Positions 15,917-54,990 are shown, counted from the stretch's first letter. The stretch is 64,000 bases of DNA from Candidatus Collierbacteria bacterium (GCA_903886255.1 CAISLM010000014.1:13562-77561), one strand, 5' to 3'. Notes: generated by a model from the sequence alone, not told the origin. A program made the numbers and translations.

Positions 15917-17635
15917 ATGTCAAATAAAGTCTACTCAATAAAAATAGGAGGAATGGCGGGTCAAGGTATAAAAAGTGCCGGATTAAATTTTGCCAAAGTT
16001 GCAGCCAGATCAGGTTATAACATCTACAACTATATTGAGTACCCTTCATTAATCAGGGGTGGCCACAATGTTATGCAAACTACTTTCTCTTTGGATGAGG
16101 TTCATTCACAGATTCAGTCTGTTGATTTTTTAATTGCTCTCAATCAAGAAACAATTAACCTTCATAAAGACGAATTAGTTTCAGGAGCAGGTATCATCTT
16201 TGAAGACGAAGGGAAAATTGATGCAACCGCCTGTAAAGACAAATGCCGACTTTTCGCAGTCCCTCTAAAAAAACTGGCCACTGAAGCCGGAGGTCAGGAA
16301 ATAGTTTCAAACAATGTTGCTCTTGGAGCATCTATTTCCTTAATGGGAGGAGACATAAAATATCTATTCGACTTAATCGATGAGGATTTTTCTTTCAAAC
16401 CGGAAATTGCCGAAATAAATAAAAAAGCTGCTCAATCCGGTTATGAATATGCCCAAACAAATTTCCCCAATAAATTTGATTCGTTGCTTACACCCCAAAA
16501 AAACGCCAATAAAAAAATTGTAGTCAATGGTACTGATGGAGTGGCCTTCGGTGCAATTGCGGCCGGACTTCAATATACAGCTATATATCCCATGTCACCG
16601 ACCTCAAACATTCTAACCATTCTCGCCGCCAATCAACGCGAATATGGATATATATACAAACAAGCAGAAGATGAAATTGCTGCCATAAATATGTCTCTTG
16701 GAGCCTCTTTTGCCGGAGCAAGAGCTATGACAACCACATCTGGTGGCGGGTTTTGTCTTATGACCGAAGGTTTTGGCTTAGCTGGGCAAACTGAAACGCC
16801 TATTGTCATTGTCGAGGGCATGAGAGGAGGCCCCGGTACCGGTTTGCCAACCTGGAGTGAACAGGGTGACTTGCGTATGGTGCTTCACGCGCACCAAGGT
16901 GAATTTCCCAGAATCGTAGTTGCCGCAGGCGATGCAGAGGAAGCTTTCCATCAAATAATGCTCGCCTTTAATCTTGCCGAAAAGTATCAAACGCCTGTTG
17001 TACTTTTGGTAGATAAAAATATTTTGGACGATGAACAAACATTCCCTAAATTCGACTATTCTTCATATCAGATTAATCGTGGCAAGATGGTCAGAGAAAA
17101 GGATCCTGAATACCACCGCTATGTCGTTACAGATGACGGCATTTCTCCTAGAACCATTCCGGGAGTAGGAAATCACCTTGTCGCCAATTCTGATGAACAT
17201 AACTCCTATGGTTATTCCAGCGAAACAATCTCCGACCGAAATGAACAAGTTCAAAAAAGATTGAGAAAACTAGAAACCTGTGCCAAAGAAGATATGGGAA
17301 AACCCATACTTTTTGGTCCTGAAAATGCAGAGATAACTATTGTTTCCTGGGGTAGTTGCAAAGGACCAATTTTGGAGGCTATGAAGGATTATCCCTTTGT
17401 AAATTACCTTCACATAAATTGGATTAATCCGTTCCCGGCAGACGCAATTAAAGCCATTCTTTCACGTTCCACGTACCTTTTAGATATCGAGTGCAACAGC
17501 ACGGCTCAGATGGCTGGTTTAATTAGGGAAAAAACGGGTATTGACATACTTGATAGATTTTTAAAGAACGACGGCCGTCCATTTTTCCCGGAAGAGATTA
17601 AAGATAAAATTAACAGTATTATAAAAACACGATGA
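15917..17635 (+). CDS. 2-oxoacid:ferredoxin oxidoreductase subunit alpha (gamma-alpha fused)
   Basis: N-terminal POR/KOR gamma-type domain (GGMAGQGIKSAG), then the alpha domain (TDGVAFGAIAAG...PMSPTS...GGGFCLMTEG). Confidence 0.85.
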   Translation: MSNKVYSIKIGGMAGQGIKSAGLNFAKVAARSGYNIYNYIEYPSLIRGGHNVMQTTFSLDEVHSQIQSVDFLIALNQETINLHKDELVSGAGIIFEDEGKIDATACKDKCRLFAVPLKKLATEAGGQEIVSNNVALGASISLMGGDIKYLFDLIDEDFSFKPEIAEINKKAAQSGYEYAQTNFPNKFDSLLTPQKNANKKIVVNGTDGVAFGAIAAGLQYTAIYPMSPTSNILTILAANQREYGYIYKQAEDEIAAINMSLGASFAGARAMTTTSGGGFCLMTEGFGLAGQTETPIVIVEGMRGGPGTGLPTWSEQGDLRMVLHAHQGEFPRIVVAAGDAEEAFHQIMLAFNLAEKYQTPVVLLVDKNILDDEQTFPKFDYSSYQINRGKMVREKDPEYHRYVVTDDGISPRTIPGVGNHLVANSDEHNSYGYSSETISDRNEQVQKRLRKLETCAKEDMGKPILFGPENAEITIVSWGSCKGPILEAMKDYPFVNYLHINWINPFPADAIKAILSRSTYLLDIECNSTAQMAGLIREKTGIDILDRFLKNDGRPFFPEEIKDKINSIIKTR

Positions 17636-52933: not shown

Positions 52934-53551
52934 TTAAAACTTACGAATAACACCAACGCACTTTCCCTGTACTTTAACATTAATTGCAAAAATAGGGGAC
53001 ATGGATGAGTTCGCAGGCTCAAGACGGACTCTGGTTCTTTCGCGGAAGAACCTTTTCAAGGTTGCCAATCCGTTTTCCAGTAGCGCTACAACAATATCTC
53101 CATCTTTAACACCGGTAGCATCACACTCTTCAATAATTACATAATCATGGTCGAAAATGCCTTCTTCAATCATGGAATCGCCCTTAACCTGTAGCACAAA
53201 TGCCCGCTTTTTTCCCGAAACCATTGACGACGCGACTTTCATAGATGCGTTTGGATCAGTTAAGGGTTCGATTGGCCTTCCGGCAGCTATAAACCCAAGA
53301 ATTGGAAGCTCGATTGAATTCGTCTCCACATTACCATGATCAACTAGAGAAATTCCTCTAATTGCTCCTTCAAATTTTTTAATTATATTTTTCTTTTCCA
53401 AAGCCTGAAGATGTTCGTGCACTGTGGCCAAAGAGGAAACGCCTATAGCTCCGGCAATTTCTGAAAGAGTTGGGGAATAACCATTTTTTTGAATAAACTG
53501 AGAAATAAACTCAACAATTTGTCTTTGTCTTCTGTAAAGTGTTACCGTCAT
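52934..53551 (-). CDS. lexA: LexA repressor
   Basis: HTH (LSEIAGAIGVSSLATVHEHLQALEKK), cleavage site region (IAAG), S24 peptidase Ser/Lys (VKGDSM...). ATG at MTVTLYRRQ preferred over the TTG start at 53593. Confidence 0.85.
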   Translation of the reverse strand: MTVTLYRRQRQIVEFISQFIQKNGYSPTLSEIAGAIGVSSLATVHEHLQALEKKNIIKKFEGAIRGISLVDHGNVETNSIELPILGFIAAGRPIEPLTDPNASMKVASSMVSGKKRAFVLQVKGDSMIEEGIFDHDYVIIEECDATGVKDGDIVVALLENGLATLKRFFRERTRVRLEPANSSMSPIFAINVKVQGKCVGVIRKF

Positions 53552-53710
53552 ATTTTCATTATTACCAAATATTACCCAAATGTCAACAAACAATACCCAA
53601 AACTTGCTAGCCCATTAGCCATATTCTATAATGCAGCTCTTATCTAAAAATTGAAATGTTTTGATGAATAGATAAAATTTGTTCCTTGACAAGTTTTGGA
53701 ATAGGAGGCT

Positions 53711-54310
53711 ATTACGAAGAAGCTTACATTCACGACTCTACTTATTATATTTTTTCTCTCAGCCTGTTCCCCTACATCTTCCCAGATCCAACTTGCGATA
53801 GCTCAAACACAAACAGCGGCGCCATACCCAACACAGACACAGTTGCCAACACCTACTGCATATCCTACTCTAACGCAGTATCCAACCAACACCACAGTTC
53901 CTGCAACAGCTACGCCTAAATCCGGGAAGCTTGCTTGGGCAGAGTTAATAGATTTTATCCTTAATGACCATACCAATTGGAATACCTATAGTGATATATA
54001 TAATTGTGTTAATTTTTCAATAGATTTGGTTTCAGGTGCGAGACAAAAGGGAATTCAGGCCTGGATTGTTTCAGTAAGTTTTGTAGGAAAAACAATAGGT
54101 CACAGTTTTGTAGCCTTTCCGACAAAAGATCGAGACGAAATATGGATTGAACCACAAAGTGATGAGGCCTATACAATTTCTCAAGTAGGACAACCTTTGT
54201 GTCTTGCTAATAATCCTAATCTTTGTTGGGACCAGGGGATTATTTCTCAAATCATCGAACCGGCAGAATGTGATCCTGTGACACATGAGTGTTGGCAAGG
54301 AAATCAATAG
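53711..54310 (+). CDS. lipoprotein with PT-rich linker and transglutaminase-like (Cys-His-Asp) core; apparent non-ATG (ATT) start
   Basis: Frame 2 reads (I)TKKLTFTTLLIIFFLSAC|S, a textbook lipoprotein signal with lipobox LSAC, right after AGGAGG. Downstream: YNCVNFS (Cys), GHSFVAF (His), DEIWIEP (Asp). The ORF track only begins at a TTG at 53843. Confidence 0.5.
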   Translation: MTKKLTFTTLLIIFFLSACSPTSSQIQLAIAQTQTAAPYPTQTQLPTPTAYPTLTQYPTNTTVPATATPKSGKLAWAELIDFILNDHTNWNTYSDIYNCVNFSIDLVSGARQKGIQAWIVSVSFVGKTIGHSFVAFPTKDRDEIWIEPQSDEAYTISQVGQPLCLANNPNLCWDQGIISQIIEPAECDPVTHECWQGNQ

Positions 54311-54392: not shown

Positions 54393-54947
54393 ATGAAGAT
54401 TCGTCTTTTGTCTGTGGTTTTGGTAATTGCTTTTGCCATGTCGGCTTGTGGAGTTTTCCCCCCTGCGGCAACTCCCACCCCCCAGCCGACCTATACCCCC
54501 CAGCCGACCTATACCCCTCAACCTACCTATACCCTTCAGCCGACTTTCACCCCGATTCCCACCAACACCCCAGTTCCTGCTCGGCCCGGCATCGACACAC
54601 CAATTACGGTCATGGGTGTTGACTTCACTGTTACCGATGTAAAAGTCTTAACTTCATATTTCTATCCAATTGAGGGAAAACCTTATTCACCGAATTCAAC
54701 CTCCGACAGGTTTTATTCGGTCGAGATGAACTTCGCCGGTGATATTGATCCTATATTTAATCTTCCGGACGGAGCGTTTTATTTCACTGACAGTCAGGAA
54801 ACGAGCAAATATTATAGTGGGTTTTGGTATTCAAAACGCAGTTTAAGCCTGTTTGCACTGACCTTTGTCTGCCCGGCAAATTTGAGTCAACTTTTGGTCG
54901 TGTTTCCAGACGGACAAAAGATTGACGTTAGTTCATTCCTTAAGTAA
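54393..54947 (+). CDS. lipoprotein with (PQPTYT)n linker and beta-rich C-terminal domain (DUF4352-like?)
   Basis: Signal with lipobox AMSAC, AAGGAGG SD, four 18-nt tandem repeat units encoding PQPTYT. Confidence 0.6.
   Translation: MKIRLLSVVLVIAFAMSACGVFPPAATPTPQPTYTPQPTYTPQPTYTLQPTFTPIPTNTPVPARPGIDTPITVMGVDFTVTDVKVLTSYFYPIEGKPYSPNSTSDRFYSVEMNFAGDIDPIFNLPDGAFYFTDSQETSKYYSGFWYSKRSLSLFALTFVCPANLSQLLVVFPDGQKIDVSSFLK
54475..54546 (+). repeat. 4 x 18-nt tandem repeat (coding PQPTYT units)
   Basis: cccagccgacctataccc x2 perfect, then ctcaacctacctataccc and ttcagccgactttcaccc degenerate. Confidence 0.7.
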
Positions 54948-54963
54948 TAAACATTTACACCAC

Positions 54964-54990
54964 GCCCCGGCTTCATGCCGGGGTTTTTAT
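54964..54990 (+). terminator. rho-independent terminator
   Basis: CCCCGGCttcatGCCGGGG followed by TTTTTATTT. Confidence 0.7.

What the first reader, a model, noticed from the sequence alone, without database searches (positions are those of the whole stretch)
53686..54310. Lipoprotein gene with a perfect signal peptide but no canonical start codon (ATT start or ATG->ATT error)
Directly after AGGAGG, frame 2 reads ATT ACG AAG AAG ... = (I)TKKLTFTTLLIIFFLSAC-S. This is an ideal n-region/h-region/lipobox signal leading into a PT-rich linker and a transglutaminase-like Cys/His/Asp domain. There is no ATG/GTG/TTG between the upstream stop (53702-04) and the lipobox. The ORF finder starts only at a TTG at 53843, inside the linker, and an overlapping frame-1 ORF (53686..53919) is low complexity. 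The simplest readings are an AUU start (as in infC) with an unusually short SD spacer, a single-base sequencing error, or a recent start-codon mutation.
Basis: seen in the sequence. Interest (0 to 1): 0.5.

Follow-up and report, generated by a model that had tools for sequence, protein, structure and literature searches.

The report
Lipoprotein gene starting at ACG codon

Summary
Between the in-frame TAG (53702-04) and the lipobox Cys (53765-67) there is no ATG, GTG or TTG. The stretch still encodes a textbook lipoprotein signal peptide that aligns with those of orthologues. It is not a sequencing error: two independent assemblies are identical here, the truncated 155-aa call sits on at least 26 contigs, and no full-length "M" version exists among 15 billion proteins.

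The ATT reading is probably wrong. Two other species-level orthologues (L049, which shares the lexA neighbourhood, and L022) also lack any canonical start. All three share a Shine-Dalgarno site, 5-6 nt, then ACG-AAx-Axx. ATT is not conserved (AAC and GAC in the other two) and lies only 2 nt after AGGAGG. ACG (53714-16) lies 5 nt after it, matching the ATG/GTG orthologues.

All three genes have intact ORFs, invariant Cys/His/Asp residues and plausible transcription signals (own promoter in two, likely operon in the third). Synonymous sites are saturated while pN is 0.2-0.4.

Best reading (about 0.6): a functional gene that starts at near-cognate ACG, giving weak or tunable expression. Main rival (about 0.2): recurrent recent ATG-to-ACG inactivation. 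The mature protein is a lipid-anchored, PT-linked domain with a papain/transglutaminase-like fold. All evidence is comparative; nothing was tested experimentally.

The parts
53604..53632 (+). Candidate promoter TTGCTA-17-TATAAT for the lipoprotein gene. A second candidate, TTGAAA-16-TAAAAT, lies at 53651-53678.
   Evidence: Consensus scan. The syntenic orthologue L049 has TTGACT-17-TATAAT at a comparable place. Function is inferred, not shown.
53702..53704 (+). In-frame TAG that closes the reading frame upstream. It overlaps the SD (TAGGAGG).
   Evidence: The same TAGGAGG arrangement occurs in L049.
53703..53708 (+). Shine-Dalgarno sequence AGGAGG.
   Evidence: It is conserved as AGGAGGT in L049 and AAGGAG in L022 although the rest of the intergenic DNA is unalignable. 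Most genes of the window have no SD.
53711..53713 (+). It is most likely part of the 5-nt SD spacer (CTATT).
   Evidence: It lies 2 nt after AGGAGG. It is not conserved: AAC in L049 and GAC in L022.
53714..53716 (+). ACG, the proposed initiation codon (near-cognate, one transition from ATG). It would give fMet-KKLTFTTLLIIFFLSAC.
   Evidence: It lies 5 nt after AGGAGG. The same SD-N5/6-ACG-AAx arrangement occurs in L049 and L022, which also lack any canonical start. ATG or GTG sits at the equivalent distance in six other lineages.
53714..53767 (+). Lipoprotein signal peptide: n-region KK, h-region LTFTTLLIIFFL, lipobox L-S-A-C with Cys at 53765-67.
   Evidence: Read directly. It aligns with the signal peptides and Cys of orthologues. 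No signal-peptide predictor was available.
53768..53920 (+). Conserved QIQLAIAQTQTAAPYPTQT block followed by a Pro/Thr-rich linker. The model is low-confidence and disordered here.
   Evidence: Alignment. pLDDT is below 50 for residues 38-69.
53843..53845 (+). TTG inside the linker. It is the start used by ORF finders and public annotation (155-aa product without a signal peptide), and is probably not the real start.
   Evidence: Protein-level conservation continues upstream of it.
53921..54310 (+). Papain/transglutaminase-like domain. It has invariant Cys (54005-07), His (54101-03) and Asp (54128-30), plus four further invariant Cys. The stop codon is at 54308-10.
54135..54135 (+). Strain polymorphism A/G: Asp in the window, Gly in L001, at a Gly that is nearly invariant in the family.
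   Evidence: It is the only difference in 4311 nt between L001 and the window. Column G142 is conserved in at least 90% of sequences.
54393..54947 (+). Downstream partner lipoprotein (ATG start, AGGAGG plus 4 nt, PQPTYT repeats). It is probably co-transcribed. A terminator lies at 54964-54984.
   Evidence: Homologues of this protein flank the family in L022/L043 and L012.

Best explanation
The gene at 53714-54310 is a functional lipoprotein gene of a Patescibacteria (Microgenomatia-like) bacterium. Translation starts not at ATT but at the near-cognate codon ACG (53714-16), placed 5 nt downstream of a strong AGGAGG Shine-Dalgarno site. Initiator fMet-tRNA would read ACG with a second-position mismatch and give fMet-KKLTFTTLLIIFFLSAC. 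The precursor would be exported, lipidated on the lipobox Cys and cleaved. That leaves a membrane-anchored protein made of a Pro/Thr-rich stalk and a papain/transglutaminase-like Cys-His-Asp domain outside the cell. Because ACG is a poor start in characterised bacteria, the likely effect is low expression of a potentially harmful surface protease or transamidase. Expression may also depend on how strictly the cell proofreads start codons, and a single C-to-T transition would turn it up over evolutionary time.

Shown here: the absence of a canonical start, the conservation of SD-N5/6-ACG in three species, the intact and conserved ORFs, and the fold.

Inferred: that ribosomes initiate at ACG, the expression level, and the enzymatic activity.
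For: (1) Three species-level orthologues (window, L049, L022; about 60% identical to each other) lack any ATG/GTG/TTG between the upstream stop and the lipobox. All three have SD + 5-6 nt + ACG + AAx: window TAGGAGGctattACGAAGAAG, L049 TAGGAGGtaaacACGAACAGG, L022 AAGGAGactgacACGAAAAAA. ACG is the only near-cognate codon common to all three between the SD and the charged n-region.

(2) L049 shares the lexA neighbourhood with the window. A 58-nt lexA promoter block is about 95% identical, and the rest of the intergenic DNA does not align, yet TAGGAGG-N5-ACGAA is retained.

(3) Six other lineages of the same clade have ATG or GTG at the same distance from the SD (L012, L014, L015, L016, L019, L021). 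Credible SD-led starts in the window lie 4-5 nt after the motif.

(4) The sequence is real. The window species has two further identical assemblies (L001, L002) and its truncated 155-aa call sits on at least 26 contigs. L022 is identical in 3 assemblies. No M-initiated full-length version exists in the protein collection.

(5) There is no decay. All three ORFs are intact and keep all invariant residues. pS is 0.68-0.90 (saturated) against pN 0.20-0.40, including the segment upstream of the first canonical start and the ACG-versus-ACG pairs. Each gene has plausible transcription signals and an unstructured ribosome-binding region in the two cases where it has its own promoter.

(6) Of 32 distinct lipoprotein signal peptides in all fetched DNA, only these three lack a canonical start. 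Four other truncated gene calls in the family turned out to have canonical starts.

(7) In E. coli, ACG supports measurable initiation with an N-terminal Met. It falls in the 0.1-1% of AUG group (bioRxiv 10.1101/063800).
Against: There is no experimental evidence of initiation: no proteomics, ribosome profiling or transcript data.

In E. coli, ACG is weaker than AUU (0.1-1% against 1-2% of AUG). On codon identity alone, the window's ATT is therefore not worse than ACG.

The protein tree is star-like. It cannot be shown that ACG was inherited from a common ancestor rather than arising three times recently.

Strains of each species are nearly clonal, so the age of ACG within a lineage is unknown.

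The major allele of the window species carries Asp at a nearly invariant Gly, which could hint at relaxed constraint.

Only 9 lineages of the clade could be examined at DNA level. I know of no validated natural bacterial ACG start (own knowledge; literature searches found none).
Confidence: 0.6

Rival explanations
1. Start-codon-dead gene. ATG mutated to ACG (T to C at 53715) and the gene is silenced or nearly so. It would be a very young pseudogene, or a gene switched off by selection, and the same thing happened independently in L049 and L022.
For: ACG is one transition from ATG. In E. coli ACG gives 1% of AUG or less. The tree does not show that the three ACG genes form one clade. Strains are clonal, so the mutation could be recent. 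G142D sits at a nearly invariant Gly in the major allele. Surface proteins are often lost.
Against: Start loss is a small mutational target compared with frameshifts and nonsense changes, yet this family shows three start 'losses' against one visibly disrupted copy (L023). All three went to the same codon. All three keep the SD, intact ORFs and all invariant residues, and each has plausible transcription signals. Window and L049 are syntenic and share TAGGAGG-N5-ACG while synonymous sites are saturated, which suggests long retention. My rough estimate, which is inference and not a computed test: the chance that 3 of 9 lineages are caught in the short interval between start loss and the first disabling lesion, all with ACG, is well below 1e-3.
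Confidence: 0.2
2. AUU start. Translation starts at ATT 53711-13 with a 2-nt SD spacer, as in infC and pcnB of E. coli.
For: ATT is a recognised rare bacterial start, and in E. coli it is stronger than ACG (1-2% against 0.1-1% of AUG). It lies upstream of the n-region and would give a valid signal peptide, MTKKL....
Against: A spacer of 2 nt is outside the 4-7 nt seen for every other SD-led start examined. The only apparent short-spacing case, at 15946, is an internal AGGAGG in a gene that starts at 15917. ATT is replaced by AAC in L049 and by GAC in L022, which have no ATT, ATC or ATA at that place.
Confidence: 0.1
3. The genomic ACG is converted to AUG in the mRNA by C-to-U editing, as in plant organelles, or it is read efficiently because of a lineage-specific change in initiator tRNA, IF3 or 16S rRNA. 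It would then be a full-strength start.
For: The pattern resembles organellar start-codon editing sites: genomic ACG exactly where relatives have ATG, recurring in related lineages with conserved ORFs. Nothing here excludes it.
Against: I know of no precedent for C-to-U start-codon editing in bacteria (own knowledge). No other gene in 64 kb of the window or 20 kb of L043 shows a missing start, so a genome-wide relaxed start rule is not indicated. IF3 in L043 looks ordinary and has a TTG start.
Confidence: 0.05
4. Translation starts at TTG 53843 as annotated, giving a 155-aa cytoplasmic protein. Alternatively, the missing start is a sequencing or assembly error.
For: Gene callers and the public annotation use the TTG.
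Against: Protein-level conservation, the lipobox and the SD all lie upstream of the TTG. No SD precedes the TTG. The domain has four extra invariant Cys, typical of extracytoplasmic proteins. The sequence is identical in independent assemblies of two species, and the same feature occurs in a third species.
Confidence: 0.03

Closest known systems
AUU-initiated genes of E. coli (infC, pcnB)
   Same: A near-cognate, non-NUG start codon sits downstream of an SD. The start is intrinsically weak and in principle sensitive to IF3 proofreading. It is conserved rather than accidental.
   Different: Here the codon is ACG, a second-position mismatch, which is not in the start set of NCBI translation table 11 (own knowledge). 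It is weaker than AUU in E. coli. The gene is a surface lipoprotein, not a translation or RNA-metabolism factor. No link to IF3 has been shown. Only 3 of 9 examined lineages carry it.
ACG start codons of plant chloroplast and mitochondrial genes restored to AUG by C-to-U RNA editing (for example ndhD, psbL)
   Same: A genomic ACG lies exactly where orthologues have ATG, in a bacterial-type translation system, with a conserved ORF (mentioned in PMC9845219).
   Different: No editing machinery or edited transcript is known or tested here. Editing of this kind has not been described in bacteria (own knowledge).
ACG initiation in eukaryotic and viral mRNAs (AAV VP2, Sendai virus C', mammalian reporters)
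   Same: The same near-cognate codon is used deliberately to keep a product at low stoichiometry (references listed).
   Different: That mechanism is scanning-dependent and eukaryotic, with no SD. It is an analogy only.
Papain/transglutaminase-like cysteine enzymes: LapG/BTLCP periplasmic proteases, protein-glutaminase, the MOA lectin protease domain, CPR-C4
   Different: There is no sequence-level match to any Pfam family or PDB chain. The protein is lipid-anchored through a PT-rich stalk. It has an extra C-terminal region with four Cys. Its substrate and chemistry are unknown.
Pseudogenes created by start-codon loss
   Same: A single-base change from ATG removes the canonical start, and annotation then falls back on a downstream start.
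   Different: There is no further decay. The SD and transcription signals are retained, and the same codon recurs in three species.

Membership tests
Bacterial lipoprotein (Lgt/LspA substrate) | Positively charged n-region followed by a hydrophobic h-region of 7-22 residues | tested here: met
   KK followed by LTFTTLLIIFFL, read. Orthologues share the layout.
Bacterial lipoprotein (Lgt/LspA substrate) | Lipobox [LVI][ASTVI][GAS]C with a conserved +1 Cys | tested here: met
   L-S-A-C with Cys at 53765-67. The Cys column aligns in 13 of 15 homologues and passes the pattern scan.
Bacterial lipoprotein (Lgt/LspA substrate) | The lipidation and cleavage machinery (lgt, lspA) is present in the genome and the protein is actually lipidated | not tested
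   The genome outside the 64-kb window is not available. Lipidation requires experiment.
Non-canonical (near-cognate) bacterial initiation, infC/pcnB type | Near-cognate codon at functional SD spacing with no canonical alternative upstream of the essential N-terminus | tested here: met
   ACG is 5 nt after AGGAGG. There is no ATG/GTG/TTG before the lipobox. For ATT the spacing criterion is not met (2 nt).
Non-canonical (near-cognate) bacterial initiation, infC/pcnB type | The unusual codon is conserved in orthologues | tested here: inconclusive
   ACG is present in 3 of 9 lineages examined at DNA level (window, L049, L022), and ATG/GTG in 6. The tree is unresolved. ATT is not conserved.
Non-canonical (near-cognate) bacterial initiation, infC/pcnB type | Initiation at that codon is demonstrated (N-terminal Met, toeprint, ribosome profiling) and responds to IF3 | not testable with these tools
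   Needs experiment or metaproteome/metatranscriptome data.
Transglutaminase-like / papain-like cysteine peptidase superfamily | Alpha+beta fold with the catalytic Cys at a helix N-terminus and the His on a beta-strand | tested here: met
Transglutaminase-like / papain-like cysteine peptidase superfamily | Conserved Cys-His-Asp/Glu triad | tested here: inconclusive
   C99, H131, D140, E147 and D151 are invariant. I did not superpose the triad on a known enzyme, and the third residue is not assigned.
Transglutaminase-like / papain-like cysteine peptidase superfamily | Sequence membership in a curated family (for example Pfam Transglut_core, BTLCP) | tested here: not met
   No Pfam hit at E<=1. 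No PDB sequence hit with the family profile at E<=1.
Pseudogene by start-codon loss | Additional lesions or relaxed constraint (frameshifts, stops, loss of invariant residues, loss of SD or promoter) | tested here: not met
   The ORFs are intact with invariant residues kept in all three. pN is far below pS. The SD is retained in all three and transcription signals are plausible for each. The only hint is the G142D polymorphism.
Organelle-type ACG-to-AUG start-codon RNA editing | The transcript carries U where the genome has C | not testable with these tools
   No transcript data. M-initiated protein versions are absent from the assemblies, but it is not known whether any of those are RNA-derived.

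The most novel reading that the evidence does not exclude
In this Patescibacteria lineage ACG is not just a leaky near-cognate codon but a properly decoded start. Either the mRNA is edited C-to-U to restore AUG, as in plant organelles, or the lineage has a relaxed or dedicated start-codon recognition system. Recurrent ATG/ACG exchange in this surface-protease family would then be a heritable expression switch.
Probability: 0.07. Interest if true: 0.9.

Novelty: new variant of a known kind. Interest (0 to 1): 0.62.

Why it matters
If ACG really initiates this gene, it would be, to my knowledge, the first natural bacterial gene family with a recurrent ACG start. ACG is absent from the bacterial start-codon table and no gene caller uses it.

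One practical consequence is already visible. The public annotation truncates the protein to 155 aa and removes its signal peptide, so a surface lipoprotein is misread as a cytoplasmic protein. The same happens in the two other species.

More broadly, it would add a second-position near-cognate codon to the ways bacteria keep a gene at very low or tunable expression. It would also offer a simple test system: an SD, a 5-nt spacer and ACG in front of a short signal peptide. That system could probe start-codon fidelity in the little-studied, uncultured Candidate Phyla Radiation.

If the genes are instead being silenced, three parallel ATG-to-ACG changes in one family would still be an unusual case of recurrent gene shut-off by start-codon mutation.

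Tried and rejected
- **Sequencing error:** rejected. Independent assemblies are identical, and M-initiated versions are absent from 15 billion proteins.
- **Other truncated family calls as further examples:** P0099, P0057, P0071 and P0109 all have canonical TTG, ATG or GTG starts upstream. They are gene-caller errors, not further cases.
- **A precedent for very short SD spacing at 15946 (AGGAGG + 1 nt + ATG):** rejected. The motif is internal to a KorA-like gene that starts at ATG 15917.
- **Genome-wide non-canonical starts:** none seen in the window, L043, L012 or L014. The SD scan found no other SD-ACG in front of an ORF.
- **Frameshift or fusion with the overlapping frame-1 or frame-3 ORFs (53686, 53679):** they have no SD, no homology and no signal-peptide features. 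Not pursued further.
- **Alternative genetic code:** TAA, TAG and TGA all end long ORFs (38/11/8), so nothing suggests recoding.
- **RNA structure around the start:** nothing significant in the window or L049 (z +0.7 and +1.6). L022 has only an upstream hairpin.
- **Population genetics to date the ACG:** strains are nearly clonal, with 1 SNP per 4-6 kb, so this is uninformative.
- **Phylogeny to decide between one origin and three:** the NJ bootstrap tree is star-like.
- **Initiator tRNA:** none lies in the window or L043.
- **Viral contigs scan:** no relatives found.
- **Literature:** no report of natural bacterial ACG starts or of unusual start usage in Patescibacteria.

Full report
**Observation.** The region reads ...TTTTGGAA TAG GAG GCT ATT ACG AAG AAG CTT ACA TTC ACG ACT CTA CTT ATT ATA TTT TTT CTC TCA GCC TGT TCC.... 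In the frame of the 155-aa ORF that the ORF finder starts at TTG 53843, the frame is open back to TAG 53702-04. It encodes (E-A-)I-T-K-K-L-T-F-T-T-L-L-I-I-F-F-L-S-A-C-S. No ATG, GTG or TTG lies between the TAG and the Cys codon (53765-67). AGGAGG is at 53703-08, ATT at 53711-13 (2 nt after the motif, not directly after it) and ACG at 53714-16.

**The upstream part is coding.** A search with the full 199-residue translation found 15 homologues. Thirteen begin with Met, a signal peptide and a lipobox Cys that align with the window's. The block QIQxAIAQTQTAAPYPTQT, which lies upstream of the TTG, is strongly conserved. The only near-identical database entry (P0001, 155 aa) is the TTG-truncated call from the same species. 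A profile search enlarged the family to about 180 proteins, mostly lipoproteins or membrane-anchored forms.

**Not an error.** Contigs from two other samples, L001 (Logan ERR4197941) and L002 (ENA ERZ27313079), are 100% identical to the window over 53560-53860. The truncated protein is recorded on 22+4 contigs. Hypothetical full-length versions beginning with M at either the ATT or the ACG position are absent from the 15-billion-protein collection, so no sampled strain has a canonical codon there. The strains are almost clonal, with 1 SNP in 4311 nt and 1 in 6468 nt.

**Two more orthologues lack a canonical start, and they point to ACG.** L022 (JGI Ga0182027_10000909; about 59% identical over the whole protein, about 63% in the domain) reads tga|AAG GAG ACT GAC ACG AAA AAA GTT CTC ... 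TCG GGC TGT. There is no canonical start before the lipobox, and the SD is AAGGAG followed by 6 nt and ACG. It is identical in three assemblies (L043, L044, L045).

L049 (ENA ERZ27256924; protein P0013, 63% identical) reads tTAG|GAG GTA AAC ACG AAC AGG TTA GTC ATT ACC ... AGC GCT TGT. Again there is no canonical start; the first ATG is 76 codons downstream. L049 is syntenic with the window. Both lie next to a divergent lexA, and a 58-nt block covering the lexA promoter is about 95% identical. The remaining intergenic DNA is unalignable, yet TAGGAGG-N5-ACGAA is retained.

The codon at the window's ATT position is AAC in L049 and GAC in L022. ACG is the only near-cognate codon common to all three between the SD and the charged n-region. 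Initiation at ACG would give MKKLTF..., MNRLVI... and MKKVLV..., all typical lipoprotein N-termini. P0003/P0004 (MMKMNRLF) have Met where L049 has ACG.

**Spacing.** Six other lineages of the same clade have canonical starts at the same distance from the SD:
- L012: AGGAGAatgtATG
- L016: AGGAGGttccATG
- L015: AGAGGTGaaaaATG
- L014: GGAGGgtttGTG
- L019: AAGGAGatctgccGTG
- L021: AAGGAGGttcaaATG

In the window, most genes have no SD at all, and AGGAGG is not enriched overall (27 found against 22.5 expected). The credible SD-led starts are 4-5 nt after the motif: 41954 AGGAGG-5-ATG, 54383 AGGAGG-4-ATG and 7408(-) GGAGGT-4-TTG. An apparent 1-nt case at 15946 is an internal Ile-Gly-Gly of a KorA-like gene that starts at 15917. 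ACG at +5 fits this pattern and ATT at +2 does not.

**Functional gene or dead gene?** Several results argue for function.
- All three ACG genes have intact ORFs that retain every invariant column of the family.
- Between any two of them, and between them and ATG-bearing relatives, synonymous differences are saturated (pS 0.68-0.90) while pN is 0.20-0.40. This also holds for the segment upstream of the window's TTG.
- Each has plausible transcription signals. The window has TTGCTA-17-TATAAT at 53604-32 or TTGAAA-16-TAAAAT at 53651-78. L049 has TTGACT-17-TATAAT. In L043 a promoter precedes the upstream partner gene and a terminator follows the target, suggesting an operon.
- The ribosome-binding regions of the window and L049 are less structured than shuffled controls.
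- Across all fetched DNA, 32 distinct lipoprotein-type signal peptides were found in stop-bounded ORFs, and only these three lack a canonical start.
- Four other N-terminally truncated family calls that I checked all have ordinary TTG, ATG or GTG starts that the gene callers missed.
- Only one family member looks disrupted by a stop or frameshift (L023).

Start codons are a tiny target compared with frameshift and nonsense mutations. Three start losses, all to ACG, all otherwise undamaged, against one ordinary disruption, is not what neutral gene death predicts. This last step is my inference from rough rates, not a computed test.

The weak point is phylogeny. The 14-member clade has 100% support but is star-like inside. 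I therefore cannot show whether ACG was inherited once, which would imply long retention, or arose three times. Either way the pattern is non-random.

**What is known about ACG.** In E. coli reporters, AUA, AUC, AUU and CUG initiate at 1-2% of AUG. The remaining codons, ACG among them, fall in the 0.1-1% group. Mass spectrometry showed N-terminal Met, with a trace of Thr, from an ACG construct. Only infC and pcnB (both AUU) are confirmed non-canonical starts in E. coli (bioRxiv 10.1101/063800). ACG start codons are known in plant organelles, where editing restores AUG, and in some eukaryotic and viral mRNAs (PMC9845219 and its reference list). My searches found no natural bacterial ACG start and nothing on start-codon usage in Patescibacteria. 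From my own knowledge, ACG is not in the start set of translation table 11.

- arylamine N-acetyltransferases

Cys99 (54005-07), His131 (54101-03) and Asp140 (54128-30), plus E147 and D151, are invariant, as are four further Cys. The likely product is a lipid-anchored, stalked, extracytoplasmic cysteine peptidase or transamidase of unknown substrate.

**Organism and context.** The best named UvrB relatives are Candidatus Woesebacteria (84%), Collierbacteria (78%) and the "Patescibacteria group". The window therefore comes from a CPR bacterium of the Microgenomatia type. More distant family members sit in Anaerolineae/Chloroflexota metagenome-assembled genomes (MAGs). The gene lies between a divergent lexA (52934-53551) and a second PT-rich lipoprotein (54393-54947), followed by a terminator and uvrB. 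Relatives of that second lipoprotein also flank the family in L022 and L012.

**Verdict.** The ATT-start reading is probably wrong.
- About 0.6: a functional lipoprotein gene initiated at the near-cognate ACG 53714-16, 5 nt after AGGAGG, giving low or tunable expression of a surface cysteine enzyme.
- About 0.2: recurrent recent silencing by ATG to ACG.
- About 0.1: an AUU start in this species only.
- About 0.05: editing or efficient lineage-specific decoding of ACG.
- Remainder: the annotated TTG start, or error.

All evidence is comparative.

Noticed in passing
window 53547-53604 (and L049 1-58): A 58-nt non-coding block upstream of lexA is about 95% identical between the window and L049, although nearby coding sequence has diverged to about 60% protein identity. 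It holds the minus-strand promoter TTGACA-17-AATAAT, whose -10 ends 7 nt before the lexA ATG (53551). That suggests a leaderless lexA mRNA. It also holds direct repeats ATTACC(C)AAAT that could be an operator.
   Followed up: partly
window 54393-54947: A second lipoprotein (MKIRLLSVVLVIAFAMSAC, three PQPTYT repeats, no Pfam hit) lies directly downstream and is probably co-transcribed. Homologues (GIDTP...V.GV motif) also flank the protease-like family in L022/L043 (upstream) and L012 (downstream), so this looks like a conserved gene pair of unknown function. The only SNP between L002 and the window (54535) falls in its repeat region.
   Followed up: partly
L012 2050-4394: Three consecutive lipoprotein genes share a nearly identical 5' UTR, SD and signal peptide (MKTKRLF...MVGC) but have different mature domains. 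This looks like a cassette-like duplication of the export module.
   Followed up: no
L043 9875-9925 (L022 1455-1505): A hairpin, GGAGGCC-N10-GGCCTCC followed by a T-run, sits immediately upstream of the SD of the ACG gene. The 3' arm and T-run (CTCCTTTC) are also perfectly complementary to the SD region GAAAGGAG, so terminator formation and SD sequestration would be mutually exclusive. The region folds better than shuffled controls (z -2.5).
   Followed up: partly
window 54135: The only difference between L001 and the window in 4311 nt is non-synonymous. It changes a nearly invariant Gly (kept in L001) to Asp in the window's more widespread allele, in a predicted beta-turn of the catalytic domain.
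   Followed up: partly
whole window; L003-L011: By UvrB similarity the window is from a Patescibacteria (Woesebacteria/Collierbacteria-like) genome. The more distant branches of this lipoprotein family are in Anaerolineae/Chloroflexota MAGs, so the family may have moved between these phyla.
   Followed up: no
whole window: Most of the roughly 57 long ORFs have no recognisable Shine-Dalgarno motif, whereas the two adjacent lipoprotein genes and a few others have perfect AGGAGG sites. SD use appears restricted to a subset of genes in this genome.
   Followed up: partly
L046 2294, L047 2348, L048 2251, L050 110: Public gene calls for four other family members (P0099, P0057, P0071, P0109) start too far downstream and drop the signal peptide, even though canonical TTG, ATG or GTG starts are present upstream. 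N-terminal mis-annotation is common in this family.
   Followed up: yes
L023 413-1009: One family member has its signal-peptide ORF closed by a stop after 27 codons, with the homology continuing in another frame (called protein P0117 is truncated). This is a probable frameshift pseudogene or an assembly error, and the only visibly disrupted copy seen.
   Followed up: no
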